A stretch of 64,000 bases of DNA from an uncultured Planctomycetia bacterium. GTDB taxonomy: Bacteria > Omnitrophota > Gorgyraeia > 1-14-0-20-64-10. Under the pieces are notes generated by a model. It did not search any database, had not been told where the DNA came from, and saw only the letters and a program-made list of their open reading frames with translations. Where the stretch lies: the NCBI GenBank assembly GCA_964597545.1, contig CAZQXN010000003.1, positions 691 through 64,690 of the forward strand, read 5' to 3'. This document shows positions 14,686 through 36,836 of this stretch, piece by piece. Both the position numbers and the translations under genes were made by a program. The stretch's first letter is position 1. Every line of letters begins with the position of its first letter.

Positions 14686-15695
14686 TGAAAGTGCTGAAAT
14701 CCCCCGAAACGTATCGAGAGGCGCTTTCCCTTCGCGTCCACGCAAACCACCTGCTCCTGTCCAGAGCGCCGAGCAACCACGTGGCCCACGCAGGTTAAGC
14801 CGCTCTTGAGATTCTGCTTTGCCCAGCGCAGAAGCGGACCTGCCTGGGGCCTCGCAACCGCCATCAGCAGCTCAAAATCCTCTCCGCCACAGAGGGCTGA
14901 TTTTAGCTCAACGCCCCGGTGCCGAGGGACGCAGTCTGCTTCAATGACCGCCCCCACTTTACTCGCTGAGCAGATCCGTGCGCAATCGGTCAGCAAACCG
15001 TCAGAAAGATCGATCATGGCATGGAGCTTTGTCTGGATCCCCAAGGCGCGTCCCTCTGCAACCCGCGGGGTGAAGGTCAAGTGCCTGCCCGAGCGGACCG
15101 CCCCACCCAACCGACCTGTCACCAGCAGCAAATCCCCGGGTTGAGCCCCTGTCCGCTTGACCAGGTGCTTGGGCTCTACCTCTCCTAAGATGGCAACATC
15201 AAGCACAACGCCTCCGGATTGAACGGTGTCCCCTCCAACCCAGTTCACACCGAATCGCTCGGCGCATCGCCTCAAGCCCAAACTCAAGCGCTGCGCAGCC
15301 GCGTGCGGGCTTTTCTTGGGCAGCCCCATGGATACCACTGCATGGCGAGGCACGCCCCCCATGGCAGCGACATCACTTAAGGCAACTGCCATCCCCTTCC
15401 ACCCCACCGCCTCCAGGGAGGCCCCTTTGCGAAAGTGAACCCCTTCGACCAGCATGTCAGAGGCAAGCAGGGTGAGCTTTCCCCGTCCGCCAGAGAGAAC
15501 CGCGCAGTCGTCCCCTGCCCCCAAGAGGACGGACCGGTCCAATCGCAGACGGCGAGTCATCCGGTGAATAATCTCTGCTTCCGCATCCCGGAGGGTCTGA
15601 CCCTTTCGTACGTGATCGCTCCGCAGGCGCTGTACGAAAGGGTCTTGTACGAAAGGGTCTGACCCTTTCGTACTGTATGGGGCGCGGGCCATCAA
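14682..15695 (-). CDS. thiL: thiamine-monophosphate kinase (start uncertain; real start probably ~15575)
   Basis: AIR-synthase-related fold. GAGDDCAVL...LVEGVHF and GGDT motifs typical of ThiL. The N-terminal ~40 codons of the track ORF run through palindromic repeat B1. Confidence 0.75.
   Translation of the reverse strand: MMARAPYSTKGSDPFVQDPFVQRLRSDHVRKGQTLRDAEAEIIHRMTRRLRLDRSVLLGAGDDCAVLSGGRGKLTLLASDMLVEGVHFRKGASLEAVGWKGMAVALSDVAAMGGVPRHAVVSMGLPKKSPHAAAQRLSLGLRRCAERFGVNWVGGDTVQSGGVVLDVAILGEVEPKHLVKRTGAQPGDLLLVTGRLGGAVRSGRHLTFTPRVAEGRALGIQTKLHAMIDLSDGLLTDCARICSASKVGAVIEADCVPRHRGVELKSALCGGEDFELLMAVARPQAGPLLRWAKQNLKSGLTCVGHVVARRSGQEQVVCVDAKGKRLSIRFGGFQHFQ
15593..15674. repeat. palindromic repeat family B copy (GTACGAAAGGGTCTGACCCTTTCGTAC, duplicated)
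   Basis: GGGTCTGACCCTTTCGTACG ... TACGAAAGGGTCTTGTACGAAAGGGTCTGACCCTTTCGTAC, between the CPBP stop (15692) and thiL. Confidence 0.7.
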
Positions 15696-16789
15696 GGGAT
15701 CAGCACAGCCTTTAAGGTGGAGGCCAAGATTAAGATCGCGATGTTGTGAAAAACATGGATCGCAATGGGCGCTGCGAGGGAACCGGTCCGTTCATATACC
15801 CATCCAAACAAAAGCCCCAATCCAAAGATCGGAAAGAAGGCTGCCAGGTGCGCGTGAAGGGCGCCGAAGCAGACGGCTGTTAGAATCAACGCATGCCACC
15901 TGTGCACGCGGGTCCGAAGCCAGCCGTAGAGCACTCCGCGAAAGAAAAATTCCTCTGTGACCGGACCGACCACCGCAACCAAGACCAACAGCCATCCTAA
16001 GACTCCGGTGCGATCCTCAGACAAATACATGGTAACCACCGGCTGAGGCGGCGGTTCAATGGAGAGAGCCCGCAGTACCATCACGACACCCAAGAGAAGG
16101 ACGGCCAACAGGGGCAGTACAGTCAGGTAAGCGCCGAGTGCCAATTGAAGCTTGTCCCGAAGCTTCGGAGCGCCGGCTTCAGGTCTGGGGTAGCTGACAT
16201 CAGGGATTGGGTACCAGCAGGGATGGCACGGTGGGCCAGCCCTTCGAAAGAGGAGCCAAAAGGCCCCGACCAAAACCACGGCATCGATCAGGAAGGTGCT
16301 CATAAGGGCAACCCAATGGTGGTCAAATCCTGACATCTGCCCGCCCCTTGAGAAGAGCAGCGCCGTCACTGAGGCGAACTGCATCGCCACCAGGGCTACA
16401 AGCCCCAGGCGGAGGATCTGCCGAAATCCCCAAGTGGGCGGCGGGGGCGTTCCCAGCGGGCGGCTGACCGGAAGCCCGCGCAAAAGCTTCAAGATCCACC
16501 GCAGGAAAGCCGCGCCAGAAGCCAGCATCAAGAGGATGAGCCCAAAGAAAACCAGCTGCAGTCGTTGGCGCAGAGCCGGGTTGGTCTCCAATCGCGCCTG
16601 GAACTCAGCTTGATCCACAGCAAAGGTCTCTTGAATCTGCTCTTGAACAGCAGTCTCTTGCTGTTCCCAGCGCTGGACCCCTTCGGCACCCTGCTGCGCT
16701 TCCTGAACAGGTGGGTGGAGTGCGATCTCGGCAGACAACCCCAAACCAAACGCCACAAGCAGGGCAAGTTCCAATCGGCTGATCTTCAT
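15692..16789 (-). CDS. CPBP family (CAAX/Abi) intramembrane metalloprotease
   Basis: Multi-TM protein with EEFFFRG...FGALH C-terminal motifs. Confidence 0.75.
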   Translation of the reverse strand: MKISRLELALLVAFGLGLSAEIALHPPVQEAQQGAEGVQRWEQQETAVQEQIQETFAVDQAEFQARLETNPALRQRLQLVFFGLILLMLASGAAFLRWILKLLRGLPVSRPLGTPPPPTWGFRQILRLGLVALVAMQFASVTALLFSRGGQMSGFDHHWVALMSTFLIDAVVLVGAFWLLFRRAGPPCHPCWYPIPDVSYPRPEAGAPKLRDKLQLALGAYLTVLPLLAVLLLGVVMVLRALSIEPPPQPVVTMYLSEDRTGVLGWLLVLVAVVGPVTEEFFFRGVLYGWLRTRVHRWHALILTAVCFGALHAHLAAFFPIFGLGLLFGWVYERTGSLAAPIAIHVFHNIAILILASTLKAVLIP

Positions 16790-16792
16790 CGG

Positions 16793-18247
16793 TTAGCCCA
16801 CATCGTTGTAAGTGCGTACGCGAAAATTCACCTTGAGCTCCTCTGTGGCCACGCGGCGGACCGCCTCTAAGTCCACACCCGGAACTGCCACTGCTGTAAT
16901 CCCGGTCTTGAGCCTCGCGGCTTTACATTCCCGGACAAAGACCTTTATGGCATCGTAAGCCGCCTCCCCAAAGGTAGGCCGGCACATCTGAAGATACTGC
17001 TTAGGGTCTGCCGTATTGAGGCTCACCGATACTTCATCCACCACTGCGGCCAGCTCCGGGGCCACAGACCTGCGATGAATCAGATTACCATGGCCGTTGG
17101 TATCTAAGCGGATTCTCCGAGCCCCCTGTTCCTTGAAGCGCCGACCCGCCGCCAGGAGCGCCTCCAGCCGAAGCAGTGGCTCTCCATAGCCGCAGAAAAC
17201 AATCTCCTCGTAACGGGACGGGTCGTTGACCTCCGAAAAGATTTGGTCCACCGAAGGATCCCGCTCCATCTTCAAGTGGTGCCCCTTCACAAAGGGAGCG
17301 CGCCCCTTGCCTGTCTTAAAATCCTCAGTACTCAAGGCGCAGAAAACGCACCTTCCGGTGCAGGCGTTGGTGAGATTCACATAGAGGGAATTGCGGATAA
17401 CATAAGTGGCTTTTCCCTGGGCCGGGGCCGGACCCATCCCAAAAAGGGCGTGGGCATTGACGGTGGTGACCCGGGCAACATCCTCCAGGGTCACCCCATG
17501 CAGCTGGGCCAAGGCTTCGGCCAGGCTTTTAAGAAAAGCAGGCTCGTTGCGCTTGCCGCGGCAGGCTTGGGGAGCCAGATAGGGCGCATCGGTCTCCAAG
17601 AGGATACGGTCTAAGGGGATTGCCTGGGCCACCGAACGGAGGGCCTTGGCCTTGGGAAAGGTGAGATTTCCCGCAAAGGAGATGTACAGCCCTAGGTCAA
17701 GACCCCGACGGGCTGTCTCCAAATCACCCGAAAAACAGTGCAGCACCCCCCGGAGTGGGGGATTGGAAAATTTCGAGAGCAGCGCAAAGAGGTCCTGGTG
17801 GGCGCGTGCCCCGCTCCAAGGGACCTGGCCGCCAGCTGTCCCGGCCTCATCATTGCGGCAGTGCAGGATGACCGGAAGATCCTGCTCATGGGCAAGAGCC
17901 AGAAGCTTACGCAAAAGATCCTGCTGGAGCGGCACCGGGGTCAAGTGGCGATGGTAATCCAGGCCAATCTCCCCGATCGCCACCACCTTCTCCTGGGCCG
18001 CAAGGGATGCCAGGGACGCGAGCACATCGCCGCTCACCTTGTCCGCCTCGTGAGGATGGACCCCGACGCCGGCATAGAGCTGAGGGTGCTTGCCGGCCAT
18101 GGCGGAAACCGCTTGGGCCGATTGCAAATCGGTCGCGGCAAGGAGCAGGGCGACGACACAGGCGGCTTCCGCCCGCGCCAACACCTCATCCCGGTCCGGA
18201 TCAAACTTAGGGTCTTGAAGATGGCAGTGGCTGTCAATCAGCTGCAT
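16793..18247 (-). CDS. fusion of TatD-family metal-dependent hydrolase (N) and TatD-associated radical SAM protein (C)
   Basis: N-terminus QLIDSHCHLQD...VGVHPHEA...EIGLDYHR (TatD). C-terminus NLTNACTGRCVFCA (CxxxCxxC radical SAM). Start moved to MQLIDSH. Confidence 0.75.
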   Translation of the reverse strand: MQLIDSHCHLQDPKFDPDRDEVLARAEAACVVALLLAATDLQSAQAVSAMAGKHPQLYAGVGVHPHEADKVSGDVLASLASLAAQEKVVAIGEIGLDYHRHLTPVPLQQDLLRKLLALAHEQDLPVILHCRNDEAGTAGGQVPWSGARAHQDLFALLSKFSNPPLRGVLHCFSGDLETARRGLDLGLYISFAGNLTFPKAKALRSVAQAIPLDRILLETDAPYLAPQACRGKRNEPAFLKSLAEALAQLHGVTLEDVARVTTVNAHALFGMGPAPAQGKATYVIRNSLYVNLTNACTGRCVFCALSTEDFKTGKGRAPFVKGHHLKMERDPSVDQIFSEVNDPSRYEEIVFCGYGEPLLRLEALLAAGRRFKEQGARRIRLDTNGHGNLIHRRSVAPELAAVVDEVSVSLNTADPKQYLQMCRPTFGEAAYDAIKVFVRECKAARLKTGITAVAVPGVDLEAVRRVATEELKVNFRVRTYNDVG

Positions 18248-18304
18248 GGCAGAGTAGATTTCTTTTACAGACAAGATGCATGGTTACGAATCATTTAGTA
18301 TACT

Positions 18305-19186
18305 ATGTCTTACAATGACCAAAGGGGACAACCTGTGACGACAACATGCGCTTGGATCATCGCTGGAGTGCTCTTGGCCGGCCTTTCAGGTGTCTGGTTC
18401 TATCTGCACTTAATGACTCAGCGCCTCCGGGACCGCTCCCAAGAGCTGGAGCAGCTTAAATCTCAGGTCCTTGAGTGGAACCGCCGGCTCGAGCAGACCG
18501 TCTCCCACCGTACCGGAGACCTGGAGCAGGCCCACCGCCGACTTCAGGAAACATACCTCGAGACCGTCACCTCCTTGGTGGAGGCGATCAGCGCCAAGGA
18601 CAAATATCTCTTTGGGCACTCCCACAACGTTGCCTACTTTGCTCGAGCCATCGCCGAGGAGATGGGCTTTTCCAAGGACCGCATCTCCCGCCTGATGTAC
18701 GGCTGTGAACTGCATGATTTGGGCAAGATCGCCATCCCTGACGACATCCTGCTTAAACCCGGCCCCCTGACCGAAGAGGAGTTTGCCATTGTCAAGGAGC
18801 ACCCGGGATGGGGGGCACGAATCCTGGAACCGCTCACCTTCATGAAGGACATCATGGAGATGGTCCACCAGGAGCATGAGCGGTTTGACGGCTCCGGCTA
18901 CCCCAGAGGAATGAGAGGAGAGCAGATTCGCCTGGAGGCCCGCATCGTCACGGTGGCCGATGCCTTAGATGCGATGGTCTCTGACCGCCCCTACCGCAAG
19001 CGAGTTACACTGGAGGAGGCCTGCAAGGAACTGAAGCGCTGCTCAGGATCGCATTTTGATCCCAGGGTCGTAGAGGCGACCCTGAAGGCCTACGACGAAG
19101 GAAAGCTGTCGGCTCCGATCAGAACCACACCCCCGCCCCTGGGACCCAAGCCCCGCAAGCGCGGCTCTTCATCCCTGACCCCTTAA
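18305..19186 (+). CDS. HD-GYP domain cyclic-di-GMP phosphodiesterase-like protein with N-terminal TM and coiled coil
   Basis: Motifs HSHNVAYFARAIA, HDLGKIAIPD, HHERFDGSGYPRG. Confidence 0.8.
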   Translation: MSYNDQRGQPVTTTCAWIIAGVLLAGLSGVWFYLHLMTQRLRDRSQELEQLKSQVLEWNRRLEQTVSHRTGDLEQAHRRLQETYLETVTSLVEAISAKDKYLFGHSHNVAYFARAIAEEMGFSKDRISRLMYGCELHDLGKIAIPDDILLKPGPLTEEEFAIVKEHPGWGARILEPLTFMKDIMEMVHQEHERFDGSGYPRGMRGEQIRLEARIVTVADALDAMVSDRPYRKRVTLEEACKELKRCSGSHFDPRVVEATLKAYDEGKLSAPIRTTPPPLGPKPRKRGSSSLTP

Positions 19187-19246
19187 AGCAGATCCCCAAT
19201 CAAGTTGGGGATGACACCCCTTTCCCATGCGGAGGATAACCTCTCT

Positions 19247-20773
19247 TTATTTCTCTAAGCGGGGGAAGAGGGGTTTGCCTTTCTGGATGGCCTGCCCCGG
19301 AGGGATCGCTGTTTCCAGCGCCTGAGGAAGACGCTGTTCCGGCAGCGCGCTGCCAAATCCCAGTTGCTTCCAGATCGATTCTGCGGTCATCGGCAAAAAG
19401 GGCCAAAGGAGTAAGGCCGTAGCGCGCACCTGCTCTGAGAGCTGAACCATGAAATTTTCTAACTCATCGCGGCGATTCTCTCGGGCCAAGGTCCAGGGAG
19501 CTGCCTGCTCCACCGAACGATTGGCCTGCCCCACCAAATTCCACAACGACCGAACTGCCCGATCCGGAGCGAGTGCTTCTAAAGCGCGCCAAAGGTTCTG
19601 GGCTGTTTCTGTGATGTTTTGACGGGTTTGTCCGCTCAGCTGGCCTTCGGGGATCTTTCCGCCGGTATGCTTCTCGAGCATCGTGAGGGTTCGGTAGACG
19701 AGATTGCCCAGGTCGTTGGCCAAATCCGAATTGATCCTTTTGACCAGCGCCCCCTGCGAGAAGAAACCATCGTCACCCAAGGGGACCTCTGAAAGGAGGA
19801 AGTGCCGAAAGGCATCCAGCCCATAGGTGGCAATGACGGCCTCGGGCTCGATGATGTTGCCCTTTGACTTGGACATCTTCTCACCCTTAATCATCCACCA
19901 GCCGTGCGCAAAGATCGTCTTGGGCGGCGGTATCCCTGCCGCATGCAGGATGATCGGCCAATACAGGGCGTGGTGACGGAGAATGTCTTTCCCGATCAAG
20001 TGAATGGCACCCGACCCCATCCAATGTTGGCGGAAACGAGCCCCATCGGGCCAACCGAGCGCAGAGATGTAGTTGACCAGCGCATCCAACCACACATAGG
20101 TGACGTGGCCGGGGCTGAAAGGAACCTCAATTCCCCAGGAGACTCGTTCTTTGGGACGAGTGATGCACAGCGGGGGCAAGGGCTTTTCCAGCATGGCGAG
20201 CAGTTCATTGCGCCTCACCACGGGCAGGATAAAGTTTTTGTTTTTCTCGATGTGTCCACGAAGCCATGCCCGATGATTCTCCAGCGGCAGGAAGTAATCC
20301 TCCTCTTCCACCTGGGATATCGGGCGCTTGCAGCTGGGGCAAAGCGCTTTTGCTTTGTCCACCTCATCCGGGCCCCAGTTGGTTTCGCAGGGGACGCAGT
20401 ACCAGAAGCGATAGCTTCCCAGCTCCAGCTCGGGCCGCAGGCGCTCGAGCATGGCTTGAACAACCTTTTGATGCCGCGGCTCGGTGGTCCGGATGAAATC
20501 ATCGTAGGAGATGTTGAATGCGGCCCACAGCTTCCGGAAGGCCTCGGAGCCCCTGTCCACAAAGGCCTGGGGTTTTAATCCCTGTTCTGTGGCGGCCTGG
20601 GCGATCTTTTCTCCATGCTCATCGGTCCCGGTTAAAAGAAAGGTCTCCTCACCGCGTTGTCGATGGGCGCGAGCTAAGACATCAGCAATGATGGTTGTGT
20701 AGGCGTGTCCCAGGTGCGGCTTGGCATTGACGTAGTAGATGGGGGTTGTCAGGTAGCATGATTGGGGATTCAT
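19247..20773 (-). CDS. metG: methionine--tRNA ligase
   Basis: HIGH-type motif PHLGHAYT, KMSKSKGN, CPxC zinc knuckle; 508 aa. Confidence 0.9.
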   Translation of the reverse strand: MNPQSCYLTTPIYYVNAKPHLGHAYTTIIADVLARAHRQRGEETFLLTGTDEHGEKIAQAATEQGLKPQAFVDRGSEAFRKLWAAFNISYDDFIRTTEPRHQKVVQAMLERLRPELELGSYRFWYCVPCETNWGPDEVDKAKALCPSCKRPISQVEEEDYFLPLENHRAWLRGHIEKNKNFILPVVRRNELLAMLEKPLPPLCITRPKERVSWGIEVPFSPGHVTYVWLDALVNYISALGWPDGARFRQHWMGSGAIHLIGKDILRHHALYWPIILHAAGIPPPKTIFAHGWWMIKGEKMSKSKGNIIEPEAVIATYGLDAFRHFLLSEVPLGDDGFFSQGALVKRINSDLANDLGNLVYRTLTMLEKHTGGKIPEGQLSGQTRQNITETAQNLWRALEALAPDRAVRSLWNLVGQANRSVEQAAPWTLARENRRDELENFMVQLSEQVRATALLLWPFLPMTAESIWKQLGFGSALPEQRLPQALETAIPPGQAIQKGKPLFPRLEK

Positions 20774-21735
20774 CTGCGCGGCACCCGATGGCTTAAGAGG
20801 GCCCCCAGCGCCAAGCGACCGGAGGCGTTGCGTTGAAGGCAGCGCTCAACCCCATACACCTGTTGAATCCTCGCCATGAGCCCCTCGACTGAGAAAGGAC
20901 GTTCAGCGGCACGTTGAAGTTCGCGCAGTCGGTCCTGATGAATTACCCAGCGAGGGTCTCCTTTGAGCTTTAAAACCAAGAGATCCCGCCAGAAGCTGGC
21001 GGTCCACTCCAGAGCCGACTTGAGCTCCTCTCGGGGTGCAGCCCCCAAGGGCAGTTCAATCTCTCCCTTTTTAAGTGCTGCCAGGATCTGATCCAGGGCG
21101 GCATTTCTCTCGGCCAAGAGATCATCCCGGTGCAGGGCCAGGGCCAACCCGATCCGACCGCCCGAAGCATTGGCCAAGAGACAAGCCTGAGCGGAATCCA
21201 ACCCCTCCTGATCTTGAAGGAAGGACGCTACCGGATCAATCCCCTGAGGAAGACAGCGAACGACATGGCATCGGGAAAGCAGCGTTGAAGGCAGTCGATG
21301 CGGTTGAGCCGCAGTCAAAATCAAAACCGAACGTTCAGGCGGCTCTTCCAAGAGCTTCAAGGTCGCATGGGTTGCCTCTTCAGTAAGCTCCTCTGCCCCA
21401 TCAATGACCCCCACTTTGCGCCGGCCCCCGTGCGGAGTTAAGGACAAGGCCCTGATCAGCGCACGAACCTGATCAATCCCCAGCTTGCCCTCAAAGCGAG
21501 CAAGATCCGGTGAGGTATCCGCGGCGCACCGTTGACAGGAGGCACAGGTGCCGCAGGCATCCCCTTGGACAGGCTTTTCACACAGCAGGCTCTGTGCCCA
21601 GGCTAAGCCCAAGGAACGCTTACCGGTACCGGTCGCTCCCGTAAAAAGATAGGTATGGCTCACACGCCCTGTCATCAACTCCTGCTTCAAGAGCTGCTGG
21701 GCAGTCGCGTTACCGATCAGATCAGCGAATGACAT
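20770..21735 (-). CDS. holB: DNA polymerase III delta' subunit
   Basis: YLFTGATGTGKRSL P-loop and Cys cluster CGTCASCQRC. Start placed at internal MSFADLIGN. Confidence 0.8.
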   Translation of the reverse strand: MSFADLIGNATAQQLLKQELMTGRVSHTYLFTGATGTGKRSLGLAWAQSLLCEKPVQGDACGTCASCQRCAADTSPDLARFEGKLGIDQVRALIRALSLTPHGGRRKVGVIDGAEELTEEATHATLKLLEEPPERSVLILTAAQPHRLPSTLLSRCHVVRCLPQGIDPVASFLQDQEGLDSAQACLLANASGGRIGLALALHRDDLLAERNAALDQILAALKKGEIELPLGAAPREELKSALEWTASFWRDLLVLKLKGDPRWVIHQDRLRELQRAAERPFSVEGLMARIQQVYGVERCLQRNASGRLALGALLSHRVPRR

Positions 21736-22414
21736 ACTGCACGTGCTCCCGAATGATTCTCTGAACCTGTTGGGGAGGCGGAAGCGCAGAGAGGACTTTG
21801 ATCCGCTTGCGATTGCGACGAGCCAAGGCCAGATAGCCGGAGCGAACACGTCGATGGAACCCAAGGGGCATGGTCTCCATGCGGTTGGGCCGCCTGACGC
21901 GGCGCAACCCCTTGCGAGCCGGAAGATCCAGCAAAAGGGTCAAGTCAGGCTTTACGCCCTGTGTCGCGGCCTCTCCCATGGCATCCACCAGTTTCAGATC
22001 CAACCGGCCGGCAAACCCCTGATAGACCCAGGTAGAATCCTGAAACCGATCCAACACCACGGTATCGCCGCGCTGCAATGCCGGCAAGACAACCTCGGCC
22101 ACCAGGGCCGCGCGGCTGGCCTCAACTAAACACAGCTCCACCACAGGATCCATCTTGCCTCGGCCTTGTGAGAGAAAGATCCGCCTTAACCGGCTGCCCA
22201 GTGCAGTCCCGCCTGGTTCGCGGGTGAGCACTACCCGGTGCCCCCGGGAGCGTAGCCAAGCGGCGAGTCGCCGGCTGTGCGTAGATTTGCCTGAGCCTTC
22301 CGGCCCCTCAAGGGTGATCAGAAACCCCTTGCGGGGTTTCTGATCATCTCGAGGAGTCCGCCCTCGCTTGCTGGAGCGCGAACGGGCGACGAGAGATCTA
22401 TTGCGCTTAGGCAT
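21722..22414 (-). CDS. tmk: thymidylate kinase
   Basis: FITLEGPEGSGKST P-loop, DRF motif. Confidence 0.85.
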   Translation of the reverse strand: MPKRNRSLVARSRSSKRGRTPRDDQKPRKGFLITLEGPEGSGKSTHSRRLAAWLRSRGHRVVLTREPGGTALGSRLRRIFLSQGRGKMDPVVELCLVEASRAALVAEVVLPALQRGDTVVLDRFQDSTWVYQGFAGRLDLKLVDAMGEAATQGVKPDLTLLLDLPARKGLRRVRRPNRMETMPLGFHRRVRSGYLALARRNRKRIKVLSALPPPQQVQRIIREHVQYVIR

Positions 22415-22415
22415 C

Positions 22416-23825: not shown

Positions 23826-23854
23826 TGTGTCCTGTGCACGGCTAAGGGTTAGAG

Positions 23855-24568: not shown

Positions 24569-24571
24569 GCG

Positions 24572-25060: not shown

Positions 25061-25757
25061 TACGCATGAGGGCCTCGGCGCAAACCAAGTCCTCGGGTGT
25101 TGTAACCTTTAAATTCCTATGGGAGCCGACCGCCACTTGGACCGGATGGCCCAAGGCCTCCACCAAGGCGGCATCATCCGTTGCCTGAAGTTTTCGAGTG
25201 CGCCTGTTTTCGTGGGCCCGGCGGATCAGGTCATACCGGAAGACCTGCGGAGTTTGAACTGCCCAGAGACGATCCCGGTTGAGGGTCTTGGTAATGGTGC
25301 GCTGGGTCACCTCTTTTACCGTCGGGGCAACCGGCACAGCCGCTACCGCGGCTTGCGCTTTACGCGCGGTCCTCAAGGTGGTGCGAATCACCTCTGGGGT
25401 CACCAAAGGCCTGGCACCATCATGAATCGCGACCCATTGGACCTGCGGGGAGAGAGCCTTGATCCCCTGGTAAACCGACTCCCTGCGAGATGCCCCTCCA
25501 GGAACCACTCGGAGCACCTTCTTGAATCTCCAGGCGCGGATGGCCCGCTTGGCCCGGGAGAGATCGTTCGGATGGATCGCAACAACCACTGCCTTCACCT
25601 CCCGAGTCGCCTCCAAGGCCTTCAAACTCCAGTACAGCATGGGCTTGCCTGCCAGCGACACAAAGGATTTGCGCACGCGGCCTCCCAGCCGCTTGCCGAT
25701 ACCTCCGGCCACCACCACCGCTGCTACCAAAGGGGGACCCAAAGGGGGACGGTCCAT
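25029..25757 (-). CDS. ispD: 2-C-methyl-D-erythritol 4-phosphate cytidylyltransferase
   Basis: VVVAGGIGKRLGG nucleotide-binding motif. Overlaps ispF as in an ispDF operon. Confidence 0.85.
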   Translation of the reverse strand: MDRPPLGPPLVAAVVVAGGIGKRLGGRVRKSFVSLAGKPMLYWSLKALEATREVKAVVVAIHPNDLSRAKRAIRAWRFKKVLRVVPGGASRRESVYQGIKALSPQVQWVAIHDGARPLVTPEVIRTTLRTARKAQAAVAAVPVAPTVKEVTQRTITKTLNRDRLWAVQTPQVFRYDLIRRAHENRRTRKLQATDDAALVEALGHPVQVAVGSHRNLKVTTPEDLVCAEALMRNGNGASRRRV

Positions 25758-25838
25758 TCTGGGACACTCTGGCTTTCAAGTGCCGAAGCATCCCTGCTGA
25801 TAAGTGTAAGGTGTGTCCCCAAATGGACCGTCCCCATT

Positions 25839-26876
25839 TTATCGGCCGTTCTTCCAACCGGGACGGGGGTGCTCATTCTCCGGCTTGGCAAAGATCATCC
25901 GCCCTGCCGCGGTCTGGAGAACCGAAGTCACCATGACCCGCACCGTCTGTCCGATCAAAGAGCGGCCCTGCTCCACCACCACCATGGTGCCGTCGTCGAG
26001 ATAGGCCACCCCCTGGTTGTACTCCTTGCCCTCTTTAATGACCCGGGTTTCCATCAGCTCACCCGGCAGCACCACAGGCTTTAACGCATTGGCCAGCTCA
26101 TTGACGTTGAGCACTTGAACGCCCTGGAGTTCGGCGATCTTGTTCAGGTTAAAATCGTTGGTGAGCACCTTGCCGCCCATGAGCTTGGCCAGCTTCACCA
26201 GCTTGGCATCCACCTCTTTGATTTCCGGGAAATCCTCATCGTGGATTCGAACATCCAGATGGGGAATCTTCTGGATCTTGGCCAAGACATCCAACCCCCG
26301 GCGTCCCCGGTTGCGCTTGATCGGATCCTGGCTGTCAGCGATCTGCTGGAGCTCCTTCAAGACAAAGCGAGGTGCGATGAACCGGCCTTCCAGGAAACGG
26401 GTTTGGCACACATCTGCAATGCGCCCGTCAATGACAACGGAGGTATCGAGGATGACGATCTCTTCGTGCTGATCCTGCCGGGAAAACTTGACGTACGGGA
26501 TGATGATATTAAAATCGTCCCTCCCCCGCAGGGCAATGGCCATTCCAAAGTAACAAAAGATTACGGCAATGACCGTCCGGATGGGAGAGCTGATCTCGAT
26601 CGCCGTAGGGAGCATGTCCAGCGTGGAGAGCACCAACCGCGCCATGATGAGCCCGAAGAGCAGACCAAAGACGGCCGCCGAAAGCCCCCGAGTGGAAACC
26701 TTCTTGAGAGCCACTTCCAAAAGAATGAGCAACAGCGCAAAGACCGCCCCCAAAGCGCTTCCTGTCCACGCAGAAGAAGGTCCCATCCAGGTATTGAGCG
26801 CACCAATCTGATAGCCCACGGTAGCAATCACGAATACGAGGAAAAAACGAACGAGCCAAAGTGTCATGTAAACCAC
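25839..26876 (-). CDS. PIN/TRAM domain membrane protein (YacL-like)
   Basis: N-terminal TM helices, PIN domain ([12 protein letters not shown]), C-terminal TRAM-like beta region. Confidence 0.65.
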
Positions 26877-26949
26877 CTCCTTGATTGGAATTGATAATGA
26901 TGCCGAACAACATGGTCTTCATGTCATCCCCAAAAAGACGGGGACCTTT

Positions 26950-29308: not shown

Positions 29309-30792
29309 TAAAACCGCTCCCGATGTTCGATCCCCAGGAAAGTGCCCTCGCTGTCCATCTCAAGCTCCAGATGCTCCTCGGGTGAGAGGGCATACTCCAC
29401 CGCAACTTTTTCCCGGGTCACCGCCTCCGGCCCGGTCTCTGCATCCACGCCGTAGGAGAAGCCAACGGTGATGGGATCATCGGGATTGGCCTGGCGCACC
29501 TGTACCCCGCCAGCTGCTTTCCCAGTCGCACTTCCATTTAAGGCGCCCATGGAATAAAAGGTCTGCTTTGCCGGACTCATCTCCCAGCCGGCCATCTCCA
29601 GTGTCTTCTCCATGGAGGTCAACTTCACCCCCCGAAAGAAATCGTTCCGGCCCACCCGGCGCAAATCCACTGTCCCCTCTGCCAGCAAAATACCGTTTGG
29701 CCGGGTCAACTGCGAGTTGGCGATCTTGAGCAAAGGTCCAGCTCCCTCGAAGCGGAGTGCCATCCGGGGATAGGAAACAATCCCAAAGAGAACGTTCTGG
29801 GCAATCAACTCACCCTTGCTGTCAAGTTGAGGAGGAGTGCCCGAAAGCTGAACCGCACCGGAGAGTCGGCCCGAGAGCGTTCCGAAGTCCGCGCCTGAAA
29901 AGATCCAATCGGCCAGATCCATCACACTGGCTCCCCGGAACATCAAATTCAGATCGACGGGATAGGGATGCCGAAGATCCATCTGGCCGGAAAGCCGAAT
30001 CCTCTCGCTTAAGAAACTGATCTCAAGCTCCAGGGCTGAACGCTCCACCTGCCACTGTATGACAAGTTCCTGTGGAATCAAGTCTTCCTGATACAGCCAG
30101 AGGAGTGCCTTGCCGCCAACGGGTGCGACCCCTTCGACTTGAAGGGCGTATCGGCTGTTGAGACCTACCACCTCCAGGGACCCCCTGCGCTGAGCAGGAT
30201 CCATCTGTCCGGTTGCCCTCCATCCGCCGGTCACCTCCAGGCGTGAGAGCTGGAGCTTGCCGTCCGAAAAACCCAACTGACCTACAAAATGTCGGCGGCT
30301 CTGCCCCAATCCCTCGAGCCACCCCAAGAAGACCGGTGTTTCAATGGCGCCCGACACCTCTACCTCTCCACTCAAGAAGGCATGCTCAATGGCAAGCCGG
30401 CCATCACACTTCGCAGTACCGTCAGGCTGAGTGGTCACGAAAAGCCGCCCATCGGCCTCAAGGGGAACCCCCGCGATATTCAAACGAATACCGGTGACGG
30501 TAGCGGCCTGCATCGTGGGTTTTAGGAATCCGAGTGAGCCTTTTAACTTCAAGCGCTCAATGGCAAAAGCAGAAGGTGTCTTCAGGCGCGCTGAGGCAGG
30601 GTCAGGATGAAAGGTAACACCGTAGAGGGTCAGGTGGGTGGGCGAAAAGGTGAGCTTTCGAATCTGAACGTCCACGCCCAGCATGCGGGTCAGGCGGCCC
30701 TGCGCGATCAACCGCCCCGCCTCCATGGCGAAGAGGGTCCCCCCTCCCAACAAGAGGAGCAATCCCAACACCCAGAGCCCGGGTCGCTTCAT
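29308..30792 (-). CDS. exported hypothetical protein (494 aa), possibly AsmA/TamB-like, co-located with the Mla operon
   Basis: N-terminal signal/TM MKRPGLWVLGLLLLLGGG. Beta-rich repetitive composition. No catalytic motif. Confidence 0.5.
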   Translation of the reverse strand: MKRPGLWVLGLLLLLGGGTLFAMEAGRLIAQGRLTRMLGVDVQIRKLTFSPTHLTLYGVTFHPDPASARLKTPSAFAIERLKLKGSLGFLKPTMQAATVTGIRLNIAGVPLEADGRLFVTTQPDGTAKCDGRLAIEHAFLSGEVEVSGAIETPVFLGWLEGLGQSRRHFVGQLGFSDGKLQLSRLEVTGGWRATGQMDPAQRRGSLEVVGLNSRYALQVEGVAPVGGKALLWLYQEDLIPQELVIQWQVERSALELEISFLSERIRLSGQMDLRHPYPVDLNLMFRGASVMDLADWIFSGADFGTLSGRLSGAVQLSGTPPQLDSKGELIAQNVLFGIVSYPRMALRFEGAGPLLKIANSQLTRPNGILLAEGTVDLRRVGRNDFFRGVKLTSMEKTLEMAGWEMSPAKQTFYSMGALNGSATGKAAGGVQVRQANPDDPITVGFSYGVDAETGPEAVTREKVAVEYALSPEEHLELEMDSEGTFLGIEHRERF

Positions 30793-30805
30793 TCCGCTTT
30801 CCGTC

Positions 30806-33277
<2,472 letters not shown>

Positions 33278-33443
33278 TCCCCCTAATGATAAATTCCAAT
33301 AAATAGGATGCTCACAGCTGCTTACCGGATTCGGATAGAGAAACTCAGCGTCTATTATCCCATAAACCCCTGATGCGCCAAGGGGATTTTGAAGAGAGAG
33401 AGGCTTTGTAACCCGTTATGGAATGGTCTGTTAGGAAATTCTA

Positions 33444-34493
33444 CTACAAAGATTCCCGCAGGAGCTGTGCCCGCCGGGAATCTCGCTCAGCCGGGCTTAG
33501 GGGGCGACCTTCCAGCTTCTGAAGGTGTGCCGGCTGTGTTTGGATGAAGAGTTGGTTGACCAAACCGCGCTTGAGGTTGGGGATGATGGCCAAATCCACC
33601 CCAAGCCGAACCAGGGAGAGCATCCCCACGGTCTCATTGGAGGTGATCAGGTGTGCTGACTTCAAGGTACCGTAGGCGCGCCAGATCCGATCCTCCAGGG
33701 CTTCCCGACTCTTCTGGAGGAGGGCGCGGCGCGCAGCCTCCTCCTGCTCAATAACCTGCTGGATGAGCCGCTCCAGATTATCTAAGATCTCTTCTTCGGA
33801 GAGGCCCAAACTCACCTGGTTGGACAGCTGAAAGAAGTTGCCGGTTGCCTCGGTCCCCTCCCCGTAGAGACCGCGTGCAGTCAAGCCCAGCTTGGAGATG
33901 GCATGCAGGACCCTATTGATCTGCTTGGTCATGACCAAGCACGGCAGGTGCAGCATACAGGAAGCTCGCATGCCGGTTCCGATATTCGTCGGGCAGGCAG
34001 TCAGATACCCCCAGTCAGACTCAAAGGCATAGGAGAGCTTGCTCTCGAGCTCGGTATTGACCTGCGAAAGCATTGCCCAAGCCTCTTGAAGATTGAAACC
34101 AGACTGGAGCACCTGCAGGCGCAGGTGGTCCTCCTCGTTGATCATCAGTGCCATGATCTCTCGATCGCTGATCACCGTCCCCTTGGAGGCAGCTGCGTTC
34201 CCTAAGGCATGCTCCCGGCTGATCAAGTGGCGCTCCACGAGAAAGAGCCGATCCAGCTCTGAAAGGACCTCCATCTTGAGAATCAAAGAGCCTTTCAGAA
34301 ATTTGCTGGCTTTGACCGCGGCAATGACCCCTTCAAGGGTCTGGCGGCGCTCGCTGGGGTTGCTGCGTTGGTAAAATCGGCAGCGGGCGAGATTCCGGGC
34401 CAAGCGAATCCGGGAAGACATGACGATCTCCCCGTGCGGTCCACCCCCGCGCAGCCATTCGCCGGTCTGTGTTACGAGATCGTTAAGCGTCAT
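33444..34493 (-). CDS. mcsB: protein arginine kinase McsB (ATP:guanido phosphotransferase)
   Basis: Phosphagen-kinase C-terminal domain motifs (EEDHLRLQVL, CPTNIGTGMRAS). Confidence 0.8.
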   Translation of the reverse strand: MTLNDLVTQTGEWLRGGGPHGEIVMSSRIRLARNLARCRFYQRSNPSERRQTLEGVIAAVKASKFLKGSLILKMEVLSELDRLFLVERHLISREHALGNAAASKGTVISDREIMALMINEEDHLRLQVLQSGFNLQEAWAMLSQVNTELESKLSYAFESDWGYLTACPTNIGTGMRASCMLHLPCLVMTKQINRVLHAISKLGLTARGLYGEGTEATGNFFQLSNQVSLGLSEEEILDNLERLIQQVIEQEEAARRALLQKSREALEDRIWRAYGTLKSAHLITSNETVGMLSLVRLGVDLAIIPNLKRGLVNQLFIQTQPAHLQKLEGRPLSPAERDSRRAQLLRESL

Positions 34494-34503
34494 GGGAACA
34501 ACA

Positions 34504-34563
34504 GGGGTCAGACCCCTTTAGGTTTCTTGGGGATCGGCTTCTTAGGGGTCAGACCCCCTTTGG
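34504..34563. repeat. palindromic repeat family B copy (two GGGGTCAGACCCC units)
   Basis: GGGGTCAGACCCCTTTAGG...TTAGGGGTCAGACCCCCTTTGG. It overlaps the mcsA 3' coding end (KGGLTPKKPIPKKPKGV-stop) and the mcsB start region. Confidence 0.65.
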
Positions 34564-35065
34564 CTTCCAGCGCTCGAATTTGGTCTCTCAGCCGAGCCGC
34601 CTCTTCAAAGGCTTCGGCAGCCACTGCTGTTTTGAGCTGCTCCTTAAGTTGGTTCAATTCATCAGGTGTCTGCACGGGCTTTCTTCCCTTTCTTCTCTGT
34701 GACAGGGTTGTTGGAATTCGACCCACATGCTGAGTAGAACCATGGATGTGCTTCAGCAGGGGTACCAGGAAGGGGCGAAAAGCGGTGTAGCAGCCCCCGC
34801 AGCCCAATCGGCCGGACTTACGAAAATCTTCGTAAGTGAGCCCGCACTCGGGACAGGTGGGTTTTGGGGTGCGCTTACCGGAGGGCTTGATCCCGAAGTC
34901 GGTGAGTCCCGCCAAAAGACCCGCCAACCCAAACTCCTGAGCTGCTCCGGCCCCCTTCTCTCGGGCGCACGCTTCGCACAGGTGCAGCTCGCGGGATTCA
35001 TCGTCAATGATCTCGGTCAGATGGACCGTCGCCGCACTCTGACCGCACAGATCACATTTCATCAA
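34508..35065 (-). CDS. mcsA: McsA-like activator of protein arginine kinase (zinc finger + UVR domain)
   Basis: CDLCGQ...CEAC zinc fingers; UVR motif AAEAFEEAARLRDQIRALE. The stop codon is provided by palindromic repeat B2. Confidence 0.7.
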   Translation of the reverse strand: MMKCDLCGQSAATVHLTEIIDDESRELHLCEACAREKGAGAAQEFGLAGLLAGLTDFGIKPSGKRTPKPTCPECGLTYEDFRKSGRLGCGGCYTAFRPFLVPLLKHIHGSTQHVGRIPTTLSQRRKGRKPVQTPDELNQLKEQLKTAVAAEAFEEAARLRDQIRALEAKGGLTPKKPIPKKPKGV

Positions 35066-36054
35066 TACTTCACGCCCTCACTTCGGGTGAGGGATCGAAA
35101 CGCTTTCATGAGCTTCAAGGTCACCTTGCCGGGACGGCCCTCGCCGATTCGGCGGCCGTCAATCTTGACCACCGGTGCAATCTCGGCAGCCGTTCCGGTC
35201 AGGAAACACTCCTCAGCATTGAACAGATCGTGCCGGGTCAGCATCTCCTCGCGGGGGCGCACCTTGGCCTTGGAGGTCAGCTGCATGACGCAGTCTCGCG
35301 TGATCCCCTTTAAGATCCCAGCATGGGCAGGGGGGGTAATCAATTCTCCCCGGCGCACGATAAAGAGATTCTCCCCGGTGCACTCCGCCACATACCCGTG
35401 CGCACTCAACATCAGCGCCTCTTCCACCCCGGCGTTGATCGCCTCGATCTTGGCGAGGATGTTGTTGAGGTAGTTGAGGGATTTGATCTGAGGGTTTAAG
35501 GCCTCAGGCAGATTGCGCGGTGTGGGAACGGTCACAATCTCCATCCCCTCCCGGTAGAGCTTCGCTGGATACAGGACGATCTTGTCGGCGATGATGAAGA
35601 CGCTGGGTTTGTCGCATTTTCTGGGATCTAACCCTAAGTCCCCTACGCCGCGGGTCACCACCACCCGGATGTAGGCATCCTTCAAGTGATTGGCCTTGAG
35701 GGTGCTGATAACAGCCGCAATCATCTCCTTCTTGCTCATCGGGATCTTAAGCATCAAGGTGTGGGCGGATTCATACAGCCGGTCCACGTGCTCAGCGAGC
35801 TTAAAGACCAACCCCCTGTAGGAGCGGATCCCCTCAAAGACACCGTCGCCGTAGAGCAATCCGTGATCGAAAATCGAAACCTTCGCCTCGGTGCTGTCCA
35901 CCAACTTGCCGTTTAAGAAAATTTTCACCCCACCACCTGCCTTTCTGCCTTTGGCAGACGAACCCTCACCAACTCCCCGCTCTGCCAAAGGCAGATCCAA
36001 TCTCCGATTGGATGGGCCTAAGGGGCCCAAGTCAGGTGGTGGGGTCATGCCCAT
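35062..36054 (-). CDS. ilvE: branched-chain amino acid aminotransferase (class IV); start uncertain, probably near 35920
   Basis: KIFLNGKLVDSTEAKVSIFDHGLLYGDGVFEGIRSY, class IV aminotransferase fold motifs. Confidence 0.75.
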   Translation of the reverse strand: MGMTPPPDLGPLGPSNRRLDLPLAERGVGEGSSAKGRKAGGGVKIFLNGKLVDSTEAKVSIFDHGLLYGDGVFEGIRSYRGLVFKLAEHVDRLYESAHTLMLKIPMSKKEMIAAVISTLKANHLKDAYIRVVVTRGVGDLGLDPRKCDKPSVFIIADKIVLYPAKLYREGMEIVTVPTPRNLPEALNPQIKSLNYLNNILAKIEAINAGVEEALMLSAHGYVAECTGENLFIVRRGELITPPAHAGILKGITRDCVMQLTSKAKVRPREEMLTRHDLFNAEECFLTGTAAEIAPVVKIDGRRIGEGRPGKVTLKLMKAFRSLTRSEGVKY

Positions 36055-36770
36055 AGTTGACCATCCTTTAAAGAGAGTACGCGCCCGGCCATCTTAAGCA
36101 TTGAGGGCTCGTGCGTCACCATCACAAACGACATCTGCTCTTGCCGACTAAACTTCATGAGTAACCGAAGAATTTCGTCTCCGCTCTTTGCATCCAGGTT
36201 GCCGGTCGGCTCATCGCAGAAGACAAGCTTCGGCCGGTTGATCAGTGCCCGGGCGATGGCGCAGCGCTGCTGCTCACCCCCTGAGAGTTCGCTCGGGCGG
36301 TGGCCCACACGACCTTCCAACCCCACCGCCTTTAAGAGATCGCGCGCTTCAGCCTTGAGCTCCTTGAGGCTTCGGCTCTTCTCGCCCTTTCCTGAATCAG
36401 AAAAACCGGGCATCCAGCCGGGAATCATGACGTTCTCAAGGGCGGTCAGCTCCGGCACCAAATGATAGAACTGAAAGACAAAACCAAAAGCCGCATTGCG
36501 AATCCGGGAGACCTCTGCATCCTGCAATCGATAGAGGGACTTCCCCTGGAACTTTACCTCACCTGAGGTGGGGCGATCAAGTCCCGCCAGCAGGTACAGG
36601 AGGGTGGACTTCCCTGACCCCGAGGGGCCAATGATCCCCACCCATTCACCCGCCCCAACCTCAAGGTCAACGCCCCGGAGCACCTCGAGCGGTTTGGGCC
36701 CCGCGTAGCGCTTCTTTAAACCAGTGCCTTTAAGCAACGGTATCGTCATTTCGATCCCGCCAGCATCCAA
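36045..36770 (-). CDS. lolD: lipoprotein-releasing ABC transporter ATP-binding protein LolD
   Basis: Walker A GPSGSGKST, signature LSGGEQQRCAIARAL; paired with an FtsX-type permease. Confidence 0.8.
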   Translation of the reverse strand: MDAGGIEMTIPLLKGTGLKKRYAGPKPLEVLRGVDLEVGAGEWVGIIGPSGSGKSTLLYLLAGLDRPTSGEVKFQGKSLYRLQDAEVSRIRNAAFGFVFQFYHLVPELTALENVMIPGWMPGFSDSGKGEKSRSLKELKAEARDLLKAVGLEGRVGHRPSELSGGEQQRCAIARALINRPKLVFCDEPTGNLDAKSGDEILRLLMKFSRQEQMSFVMVTHEPSMLKMAGRVLSLKDGQLWA

Positions 36771-36836
36771 GGGTCAGGCACTTTTGTACCGGTTTGTACC
36801 AAAGGGTCTGACCCCTTGGTACAAAAGTGCCAGACC
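36771..36836. repeat. palindromic repeat family B copy (66-bp near-perfect palindrome)
   Basis: GGGTCAGGCACTTTTGTACCGGTTTGTACCAAAGGGTCTGACCCCTTGGTACAAAAGTGCCAGACCC; abuts the lolE stop codon. Confidence 0.75.

What the first reader, a model, noticed from the sequence alone, without database searches (positions are those of the whole stretch)
15593..36836. Second palindromic repeat family (GTACnAAAGGGTCTGACCCTTTnGTAC), 3 copies, one of which supplies the mcsA stop codon
Copies lie at 15593-15674 (between the CPBP protease and thiL), 34504-34563 (overlapping the mcsA 3' end and the mcsB start region) and 36771-36836 (a 66-bp near-perfect palindrome abutting the lolE stop). In the mcsA copy the last codons plus TGA (K G V stop) are read from AAAGGGGTCTGACCCC, so the repeat creates the C-terminus and stop of a conserved regulator gene. 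The embedded GTAC tetramers suggest a relationship with family A.
Basis: seen in the sequence. Interest (0 to 1): 0.55.

Follow-up and report, generated by a model that had tools for sequence, protein, structure and literature searches.

The report
Tiny palindromic repeats remodelling gene junctions
A short hairpin-forming DNA repeat (core GGGTC-T/A-GACCC) was recently inserted at three tightly packed gene junctions of an uncultivated Omnitrophota bacterium, where it now supplies the last codons and stop of mcsA, extra N-terminal codons of thiL and a long hairpin between lolE and lolD; this is the kind of small selfish repeat known from other bacteria, but new for this phylum.

Summary
The 11-nt core GGGTC[T/A]GACCC occurs exactly 5 times, at three loci (about 0.03 expected). 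Each locus is a cluster of 2-3 units, not a single copy. Loci 1 and 3 carry 27-nt units, GTAC-N-AAAGGGTC-W-GACCCTTT-N-GTAC. The mcsA locus carries two GGGG-type cores without GTAC arms.

A collinear relative (31.7 kb, 93% nt identity) is empty at all three sites, and outgroups have overlapping lolE/lolD and mcsA/mcsB. These are therefore lineage-specific insertions: +12 and +24 nt in mcsA (adding GGLT, then K-G-V-stop), about +88 nt between lolE and lolD, and +57 nt in frame inside the annotated ThiL N-terminus.

The same core, often as inverted doublets, occurs in other Omnitrophota, again at mcsA junctions. It also lies upstream of mcsA in a Planctomycetota MAG. In IMG/VR phage contigs it sits in frame in a portal gene and is absent from an 85%-identical phage.

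Best reading: a REP/REPIN- or SDR-like miniature dispersed palindrome, tolerated only at permissive gene ends. The agent that moves it is unknown; no transposase lies in the window. It is not a terminator. The genome-wide copy number could not be measured. A specific link to mcsA remains possible.

The parts
15590..15611 (.). Locus 1, unit a: GGAGGGTCTGACCCTTTCGTAC. The core and right arm are intact; the left arm is degenerate.
   Evidence: (family D8)
15632..15646 (.). Locus 1, half unit GTACGAAAGGGTCTT. It pairs with the right arm of unit a across a 20-nt spacer.
15647..15673 (.). Locus 1, unit b: GTACGAAAGGGTCTGACCCTTTCGTAC, a 27-nt palindrome that is perfect apart from the centre base. ssDNA hairpin -11.8 kcal/mol.
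14682..15692 (-). thiL CDS as annotated (336 aa; P0121 is 100% identical). Its ATG overlaps the CPBP stop (TGATG). Codons about 8-35 (STKGSDPFVQDPFVQRLRSDHVRKGQTL) are read from the repeat array. Net +57 nt in frame relative to the close relative.
34547..34558 (-). Locus 2, 12-nt insertion GGGGGTCTGACC (minus strand) inside the mcsA tail. It adds G-G-L-T and completes the palindrome AGGGGGTCTGACCCCT with the pre-existing CCT.
34495..34518 (-). Locus 2, 24-nt insertion AAGGGGTCTGACCCCTGTTGTTCC (minus strand). It supplies codons G-V and the TGA stop of mcsA (stop at 34508-34510) and the new 14-nt spacer before the mcsB ATG (34491-34493).
34508..35062 (-). mcsA (protein arginine kinase activator, UVR domain). 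The conserved part ends at ...RLRDQIRALEAK; the tail GGLTPKKPIPKKPKGV is lineage-specific.
36771..36836 (.). Locus 3, a 66-nt composite palindrome made of three units: 36771-36789 degenerate, 36796-36822 near-perfect, 36819-36836 degenerate. It overlaps the lolE stop TAG (36837-39) by 2 nt.
36742..36836 (-). The whole tract that separates the lolE stop from lolD and is absent from the relative. The relative reads TAG-CC-ATG, and outgroups overlap by 8 nt. The tract includes the new lolD start ATGACGATA (ATG at 36747-36749).

Best explanation
Family B is a miniature, hairpin-forming dispersed repeat of the REP/REPIN or cyanobacterial SDR type. It entered the window's lineage after the split from its 93%-identical relative.

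Shown: the unit is a 19-27-nt palindrome, (GTAC-N-)AAAGGG(G)TC-W-GACCC(C)TTT(-N-GTAC). Units occur singly, as inverted doublets or as small clusters. New copies appear at sites that are empty in close relatives.

Inferred: in this very compact genome, where neighbouring genes overlap, copies survive only where constraint is lax. Such places are between a stop and the next start, in the variable Lys/Arg-rich McsA tail, and in the non-conserved ThiL leader. Only copies that keep the frame open, or that place the TGA of the T-centred core at a harmless position, are retained.

Consequences seen in the sequence: the ancestral lolE/lolD and mcsA/mcsB overlaps are lost; the mcsA stop is new; McsA gains 4+ and ThiL 19 residues; and stable hairpins now sit within these tightly packed, co-directional gene arrays.

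Speculative: how the repeat is copied. The GTAC-plus-hairpin architecture resembles the GT[A/G]G-plus-hairpin substrates of HUH/Y1 (RAYT, IS200/IS605-type) enzymes acting in trans. Short-patch recombination with other copies is an alternative.
For: - Non-random repeat: 5 exact cores at 3 loci against about 0.03 expected; shuffle controls.
- Empty sites: 31.7 kb are collinear with L001/L031 at 93% identity. The alignment breaks or gaps exactly at the three loci, and families A and B account for nearly all indels of 12 nt or more. No core occurs in L001-L006 or L031.
- Polarity: outgroups L026, L028 and L030 have overlapping lolE/lolD, and L026/L028 have overlapping mcsA/mcsB. Of the 120 McsA homologs scanned for core-encoded peptides and a GV terminus, only P0028 carries a core-derived tail (confirmed in DNA); P0020 also ends KGV but its DNA could not be read, and P0095's GV is not from the core. 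No other of the 120 ThiL homologs has the leader peptide.
- Same family elsewhere, with the same behaviour. L015 has two cores in the mcsA tail and its >=90% relative L032 has none. L030 has a doublet between the ilvE stop and the mcsA start, plus one core upstream of lolE. Phage L035 has a doublet in frame in its portal gene, absent from 85%-identical L039, while L039 has a core in frame in another gene, absent from L035.
- The core is read in all three frames (GV*, GSDP, GLT/GQT), so conservation is at the DNA level and not the protein level.
- Multi-copy contigs are seen only for this motif and not for two same-shape control palindromes.
- Units form stable hairpins. REP-like anatomy is described in PMC2817692 and doublets in PMC3116915.
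Against: - Copy number in the source genome is unknown. Only 64 kb could be read, and exact-pattern scans of the genome and metagenome collections returned about chance-level hits with no Omnitrophota.
- None of the 39 window ORFs scanned against Pfam matched a transposase or RAYT family; a large serine recombinase lies in the low-GC island.
- No target-site duplication or constant target was found at the three sites.
- The 12-nt mcsA insertion is not a complete unit; it forms a palindrome only together with its flank. This fits patchy recombination better than cut-and-paste.
- The mcsA cores lack GTAC arms, so B may be two related families.
- Cores lie next to mcsA in four lineages, more than random insertion predicts.
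Confidence: 0.65

Rival explanations
1. The core is a functional cis element, either a protein operator or an RNA hairpin, tied to the mcsA-mcsB-clpC protein-quality-control operon. It would be recruited or retained by selection to set transcription or the McsA:McsB translation ratio. The other copies would belong to the same regulon or be by-products.
For: - Cores adjoin mcsA in four lineages: the window and L015 (mcsA tail / mcsB start), L030 (directly upstream of mcsA) and L008.
- L008 is a Planctomycetota MAG found by a genome-wide pattern scan, not through McsA. Its unit GTACAAAAGGGTCTGACCCCATGTAC lies about 40 nt upstream of mcsA, in a divergent promoter region.
- In the window and L015 the second core is 10-14 nt from the next start codon.
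Against: - The element is absent from the 93%-identical relative and from most Omnitrophota mcsA loci (L001, L025-L029, L032).
- Its position differs between lineages.
- Other copies sit at unrelated junctions (lolE/lolD, CPBP/thiL) and inside phage structural genes.
- There is no match to the CtsR heptad direct repeat (own knowledge of that consensus).
- L015 and L030 were sampled through McsA, which inflates the association.
Confidence: 0.15
2. The repeats are copied not by a transposase but by short-patch homologous or illegitimate recombination. Junction cassettes or hairpins would be acquired from other copies or other lineages, possibly through phage DNA or natural transformation.
For: - The mcsA changes are a 12-nt and a 24-nt patch with dense substitutions around them. 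The first 9 nt of mcsB change from GTGAAACTC to ATGACGCTT.
- There are no TSDs.
- The same core occurs in phages.
- ComEA and ComEC are encoded in the window.
- Only the two genes downstream of insertions start with ATGACG (2 of 52).
Against: - No donor sequence was identified.
- The spacers between core and start codon differ at every site.
- Recombination alone does not explain why this one palindrome is the sequence that spreads.
Confidence: 0.12
3. The hairpins are intrinsic terminators or attenuators.
For: - In phage contigs the core is flanked by A and T runs (AAAAGGGGTCTGACCCCTTTT) and often lies between genes.
- On the + (antisense) strand of the window, the two mcsA cores score as terminator-like.
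Against: - On the transcribed minus strand no copy is followed by a U tract, and none is called terminator-like.
- All three loci lie inside tightly packed, co-directional gene arrays whose genes ancestrally overlapped.
- Two loci are translated.
Confidence: 0.04
4. The pattern is chance similarity, local de novo palindrome formation, or an assembly artefact.
For: - All sources are short-read MAG or metagenome assemblies.
- Palindromes can arise by template switching.
Against: - The same 11-13-nt core appears at 5 sites here and in independent assemblies (NCBI MAGs, Logan, IMG/VR) with different flanks.
- The reading frames stay intact.
- Shuffle controls give an expectation far below 1.
Confidence: 0.03

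Closest known systems
REP / BIME / REPIN elements mobilised by RAYT (Y1 HUH) transposases (PMC2817692, PMC3116915)
   Same: - Units of 20-30 nt.
- A GC-rich imperfect palindrome with a 1-3-nt non-complementary centre, preceded by a conserved tetranucleotide.
- Occurrence as inverted doublets and clusters.
- Presence/absence differences between close relatives.
- One published REP, from H. parasuis (GTAGGGTGGGTCTTGACCCACC), even has a similar GGGTC..GACCC stem.
   Different: - The head is GTAC, not GT[A/G]G. It is present on both sides as part of the palindrome, and is absent from the mcsA copies.
- Two of the three loci are inside annotated CDSs rather than extragenic.
- No RAYT was seen.
- RAYT/REP systems were described in Proteobacteria (PMC2817692) and, as REPINs, in Nostoc (PMC3116915), not in Omnitrophota.
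- Copy number is unknown.
Small dispersed repeats (SDR) of cyanobacteria (Elhai et al. 2008, Genome Res 18:1484; cited in PMC3116915; details from my own knowledge)
   Same: - Very small (about 21-27 nt) palindromic units.
- They appear as clean insertions in otherwise conserved sequence, can be nested in one another, and are found within genes as well as between them.
- No known transposase.
   Different: - A different phylum and a different sequence.
- Nesting here is only suggested: the core lies between family A arms in L008 and in the locus 3 composite.
Rickettsia palindromic elements (RPE) (reviewed in PMC10969869)
   Same: Palindromic selfish DNA inserted in frame into protein-coding genes, which remain intact and gain extra peptide segments.
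   Different: - RPEs are about 100-150 bp and encode a conserved peptide in one frame.
- Here the inserts are 12-57 nt and are read in all three frames.
- Here one insert also provides a stop codon.
Operon-internal MITEs such as Chunjie of Geobacter, and terminator-like elements such as SPRITE of S. pneumoniae (PMC10969869)
   Same: Insertion between genes of an operon without destroying it; hairpin-forming; terminator-like shape in the phage copies.
   Different: - Those elements are about 100-250 bp with TIRs and TSDs.
- No TSD was found here, and the window copies have no U tract on the transcribed strand.

Membership tests
REP/REPIN (RAYT-associated) | Short (about 20-40 nt) imperfect palindrome with a non-complementary centre | tested here: met
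   Units b and e are 27 nt and palindromic around a single T/A. ssDNA hairpins are -11.8 and -7.6 kcal/mol.
REP/REPIN (RAYT-associated) | Conserved GT[A/G]G head 5' of the palindrome (PMC2817692) | tested here: not met
   The head is GTAC, on both sides. The two mcsA cores have no such head.
REP/REPIN (RAYT-associated) | Organisation as inverted doublets or clusters (PMC3116915) | tested here: met
   Loci 1 and 3 are clusters of 2.5-3 units. L015, L030, L035 and L046 have an A-centred core followed by a T-centred core 26-36 nt apart. The window's mcsA pair is direct, not inverted.
REP/REPIN (RAYT-associated) | Extragenic location | tested here: not met
   Locus 1 lies inside the annotated 336-aa ThiL and locus 2 inside the mcsA tail. 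Phage copies lie inside portal and gpI-like ORFs.
REP/REPIN (RAYT-associated) | Tens to hundreds of copies per genome | not testable with these tools
   Only 64 kb of the source genome is available. The genome is not in the scanned collections, and look-ups of its proteins failed.
REP/REPIN (RAYT-associated) | Cognate RAYT gene flanked by the repeats | tested here: inconclusive
   None of the 39 window ORFs scanned against Pfam matched a transposase family. The rest of the genome was not seen.
MITE | Terminal inverted repeats plus target-site duplication, 50-500 bp, derived from an IS | tested here: not met
   The inserts are 12, 24, about 57 and about 88 nt. No duplicated flank was found at any of the three filled/empty comparisons.
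RPE-like in-frame palindromic insertions | Insertion inside an ORF that stays open | tested here: met
   thiL +57 nt and mcsA +12 nt. The L035 portal gains 9 residues net within a replaced core-encoded stretch, and the L039 gpI-like gene carries a core-encoded stretch (QKGSDPFFK) absent from L035.
RPE-like in-frame palindromic insertions | Element of about 100-150 bp encoding one conserved peptide | tested here: not met
   The units are 12-27 nt and are read in three different frames: GV*, GSDP, GLT/GQT.
Cyanobacterial SDR | Palindromic units of 21-27 nt that are present or absent between close relatives, including within genes | tested here: met
Cyanobacterial SDR | Sequence membership in SDR families / cyanobacterial host | not tested
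   The SDR paper (PMC2527708) is not held. The host here is Omnitrophota.
Intrinsic terminator | GC-rich stem followed by a U tract on the transcribed strand, at the end of a transcription unit | tested here: not met
   There are no terminator-like calls on the minus strand at any of the three loci. The loci are internal to tightly packed, co-directional gene arrays.
CtsR operator (clpC-operon repressor site of Firmicutes) | Tandem direct heptads (A/G)GTCAAA-NAN-(A/G)GTCAAA upstream of clp genes (own knowledge) | tested here: not met
   The core is an inverted, not a direct, repeat. GGTCAGA matches one heptad with 1 mismatch, but there is no second heptad.

The most novel reading that the evidence does not exclude
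The 13-19-nt palindrome AAAGGGGTC-W-GACCCCTTT may be a promiscuous, ultra-small mobile element shared by Omnitrophota, Planctomycetota and several unrelated phages. It would insert at stop/start junctions and in frame into coding DNA, be moved by an as yet unidentified enzyme, and have a real preference, by targeting or by selection, for the mcsA-mcsB junction, where it resets translational coupling of the arginine-kinase module.
Probability: 0.2. Interest if true: 0.75.

Novelty: new variant of a known kind. Interest (0 to 1): 0.5.

Why it matters
- It shows how selfish hairpin repeats can colonise a highly compact genome with overlapping genes. They use the only slack available: stop/start junctions and disordered protein ends. 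In doing so they rewrite stop codons, start contexts and translational coupling.
- For annotators, the McsA tail and the 27-residue ThiL leader are repeat-derived, not conserved protein features.
- For Omnitrophota, which have no genetic system, such repeats are strain-level markers and possible handles on mRNA processing.
- If the cross-phylum and phage distribution is real, it points to an unrecognised mobilisation mechanism for elements far smaller than MITEs.

Tried and rejected
- Exact-pattern scans with GTACNAAAGGGTCTGACCC of GTDB species genomes (8 hits) and JGI metagenomes (9 hits) were at about chance level. They did not retrieve the source genome, so no genome-wide count was possible.
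- Look-ups of the window's own McsA and ThiL products failed, so the remaining 56 kb of the 120-kb source contig could not be read.
- Rfam found only two c-di-GMP riboswitches and nothing at the repeats. No tRNA genes were found.
- The terminator hypothesis was rejected.
- P0095, which also ends in GV, does not contain the core (GGA GTT TGA). DNA for P0020 (ends AKGV) was not retrievable.
- An all-against-all comparison of ORFs from motif-bearing contigs found no shared candidate mobilisation gene, only phage tail and head genes.
- A full-text search for the core sequence returned only primers and unrelated sequences. No paper links Omnitrophica to such repeats.
- A resemblance of unit b to the 454 FLX paired-end linker (shared CGAAAGGGT/ACCCTTTCG, from memory) was judged coincidental. 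The centre differs, copies vary, and ORFs stay intact.
- The host of the phage contigs could not be established. The best named capsid relatives are a Tenuifilaceae-binned MAG (93%) and Desulfovibrionaceae (about 52%).

Full report
**Context.** The window comes from an uncultivated Omnitrophota (Candidatus Omnitrophica) genome. McsA and ThiL homologs are named so by their sources. A 100%-identical ThiL (P0121, 336 aa) sits on a 120-kb NCBI contig. All genes around the finding are on the minus strand. They are tightly packed and many overlap. Their order is CPBP protease, thiL and tsaE in one block, and lolE, lolD, ilvE-like, mcsA, mcsB and clpC in another.

**Observation.**
- The exact core GGGTC[T/A]GACCC occurs five times: at 15593, 15655, 34505, 34546 and 36804.
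- With up to 1 mismatch on the 11-mer there are 13 strand-matches, against 1.77 expected from shuffles. With up to 3 mismatches on the 17-mer there are 9, against 0.18.
- Each locus is a cluster of units, not a single copy.
- Loci 1 and 3 are built from the 13-nt half-site GTACNAAAGGGTC and its complement. Together these give 27-nt units, GTAC-N-AAAGGGTC-W-GACCCTTT-N-GTAC.
- Locus 1 has one unit with a degenerate left arm, a 20-nt spacer, a half unit and a perfect unit.
- Locus 3 is a 66-nt composite of three units that share GTACs. Its outer units are degenerate (GGGTCAGGCACTTTTGTAC).
- Locus 2 has two cores 41 nt apart. They are of the GGGG type, AAAGGGG(G)TCTGACCCCT, and have no GTAC arms.
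- As RNA on the transcribed strand, loci 1 and 3 fold at -58.1 and -43.4 kcal/mol (z about -7). Locus 2 folds only weakly (z -2.2).
- Single units form ssDNA hairpins of -4 to -12 kcal/mol with a 3-nt loop.

**The copies are insertions.**
- Contigs L001 and L031, from JGI sample 3300009373, are collinear with the window over 31.7 kb at 93% nucleotide identity. They contain no core.
- lolE/lolD: the relative reads TAG-CC-ATG. The window has about 88 extra nt there.
- mcsA/mcsB: the relative's mcsA ends ...AAG CCT AAG AAG CGG ACA AAG GAT ACG TGA and overlaps the mcsB GTG. The window has exactly two extra blocks, GGGGGTCTGACC (12 nt, adding G-G-L-T) and AAGGGGTCTGACCCCTGTTGTTCC (24 nt). The second block gives G-V, the TGA stop and a 14-nt spacer before the mcsB start.
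- CPBP/thiL: in both genomes the thiL ORF begins at the ATG of TGATG, overlapping the CPBP stop. The window ORF is 336 aa and the relative's is 317 aa, a net +57 nt in frame.
- Reading of the thiL leader: the conserved ThiL N-terminal motif (LGExxLI in homologs, DAEAEII here) lies downstream of the repeats, and no other start codon intervenes. The repeat array is therefore most likely translated, as STKGSDPFVQDPFVQRLRSDHVRKGQTL.
- Outgroups L026, L028 and L030 have lolE/lolD overlapping by 8 nt. L026 and L028 have mcsA/mcsB overlapping. The filled state is therefore derived.
- Across the 31.7 kb, family B and family A account for nearly all indels of 12 nt or more.

**The same family occurs elsewhere.**
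- L015 is a Logan assembly whose McsA is 61% identical to the window's. Its mcsA tail reads AAA AGG GGT CAG ACC CCT AAA GGC TCA AAA GGG GTC TGA. That is again two cores, with the second giving K-G-V-stop 12 nt before the mcsB ATG.
- Its relative at 90% identity or more, L032, has a different tail without any core.
- L030 (GCA_964603095.1) has a doublet between the ilvE stop and the mcsA start, where other genomes leave 1-3 nt. It has one more core upstream of lolE.
- The three doublets align.
- L008 is a Planctomycetota MAG, found only through the genome-wide pattern scan. It carries GTACAAAAGGGTCTGACCCCATGTACCCGG about 40 nt upstream of its mcsA-mcsB-clpC.
- In IMG/VR, the 19-mer AAAGGGGTCTGACCCCTTT gave 20 matches in 9 contigs, with up to 6 matches per contig.
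- Two control palindromes of the same shape gave 3 and 8 single hits.
- In the Mu-like phage L035, a doublet lies in frame inside the portal ORF (KGVRPLLDPQKGSDPF). It is absent from the 85%-identical phage L039. L039 in turn has a core in frame (QKGSDPFFK) in a gene where L035 has none.
- The core is read in all three frames at different sites, so what is conserved is DNA, not peptide.

**Interpretation.**
- The anatomy is a short palindrome with a tetranucleotide head, occurring as doublets and clusters.
- The dynamics are clean presence/absence between close relatives, in several lineages and in phages.
- Both match miniature dispersed palindromic repeats. The closest comparisons are REP/REPIN elements (PMC2817692, PMC3116915), cyanobacterial SDRs and, for the in-frame aspect, Rickettsia RPEs (PMC10969869).
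- In a genome with overlapping genes, the surviving copies sit where constraint is minimal. The T-centred core carries a TGA in one frame, and that TGA is what terminates mcsA.
- The elements are not terminators. None has a U tract on the transcribed strand, and all lie inside tightly packed, co-directional gene arrays.
- The mobilising agent is unknown. None of the 39 window ORFs scanned against Pfam matched a transposase family. No TSD was found. The 12-nt patch forms a palindrome only together with its flank, which leaves recombination-type copying open.

**Open points.**
- Cores adjoin mcsA in four lineages. One of these (L008) was found independently of McsA. A targeting or functional link to this operon therefore cannot be excluded.
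- Only two of 52 window ORFs begin with ATGACG. They are mcsB and lolD, the two genes just downstream of insertions.
- The GTAC arms, the GTACCGGTTT segment in locus 3, and the CGGGTAC...GTACCCGG flanks in L008 tie family B to family A. Family A, unlike B, is conserved in the relative.
- Copy number in the source genome could not be measured.

**Verdict.** This is a new variant of a known kind of element, of moderate interest.

Noticed in passing
window 57713-59314 (-), repeats at 58024-58112 and 58725-58832: Family A repeats (GGTACCNGGTACC...TTTTAGGTGTGGGG) lie inside an intact 533-aa ComEC ORF (Pfam Competence + DUF4131). Family A may therefore also sit in frame in coding DNA, as family B does.
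   Followed up: partly
window 42391-42470 and 41929-41971; L001 2885-2918: Family A downstream of secA is conserved in the 93%-identical relative. It differs in copy number: the window has two extra GGTACCGAACCA units (24 nt) and an extra 21 nt at 41929-41949. Its central palindrome GGTACATATGTACC (46531-46544) fits the cyanobacterial-type LexA box RGTACNNNDGTWCB (consensus from memory, not tested).
   Followed up: partly
window 33444-34493 (mcsB) and 36045-36749 (lolD): Only 2 of 52 ORFs in the window start with ATGACG. They are exactly the two genes immediately downstream of family B insertions. The relative has GTGAAA and ATGGAA at the same places. Unexplained.
   Followed up: partly
window 1-10450: A low-GC (50-54% against 58%) island. 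It encodes a DnaG-like primase (3386-5983), a large serine recombinase (8704-10374) and several ORFs without a Pfam match. Collinearity with the relative L031 stops at about 10449. It is probably an integrated mobile element.
   Followed up: partly
window 10734-10809 (-) and 12158-12234 (-): Two c-di-GMP-I riboswitch aptamers (Rfam RF03167 at 64 bits, RF01051 at 56 bits), 1.4 kb apart. They also appear as direct repeat D12. The second precedes an HTH_17 gene (11765-12136).
   Followed up: no
window 19186-19216 and 57058-57088: A third hairpin repeat, GATCCCCAATCAAGTTGGGGATG, present as two copies in opposite orientation (90% complementary) at gene ends. The first copy differs from the relative by 6- and 9-nt indels.
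   Followed up: no
window 25741-25839: An inverted repeat with 27-nt arms (89% complementary) and a 45-nt spacer, between the ispD start and the upstream PIN-domain gene. The relative differs by a 6-nt indel (TCCCCC) in the left arm.
   Followed up: no
window 38527-38547: A 21-nt in-frame tandem duplication (EKMKKDN twice) at the C-terminus of a YbjN-like ORF (38485-38943). It is absent from the relative.
   Followed up: no
L011 6653-6689 (Solirubrobacterales MAG): A perfect 36-nt palindrome, GGGGTCAGACCCTTTAGTACTAAAGGGTCTGACCCC, about 20 nt upstream of a gene start. It has the same half-sites as family B, but joined at the GTAC. It may be an unrelated operator or a distant family member.
   Followed up: no
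L021 23-70 (JGI Ga0315296 contig): A doublet, GTACGAAAGGGTCTGACCC-TCGCAAAAGTGCGA-GGGTCAGACCC. Its spacer shares CAAAAGTGC with the outer arms of the window's locus 3 (GTACAAAAGTGCC), which hints at a longer conserved element form.
   Followed up: no
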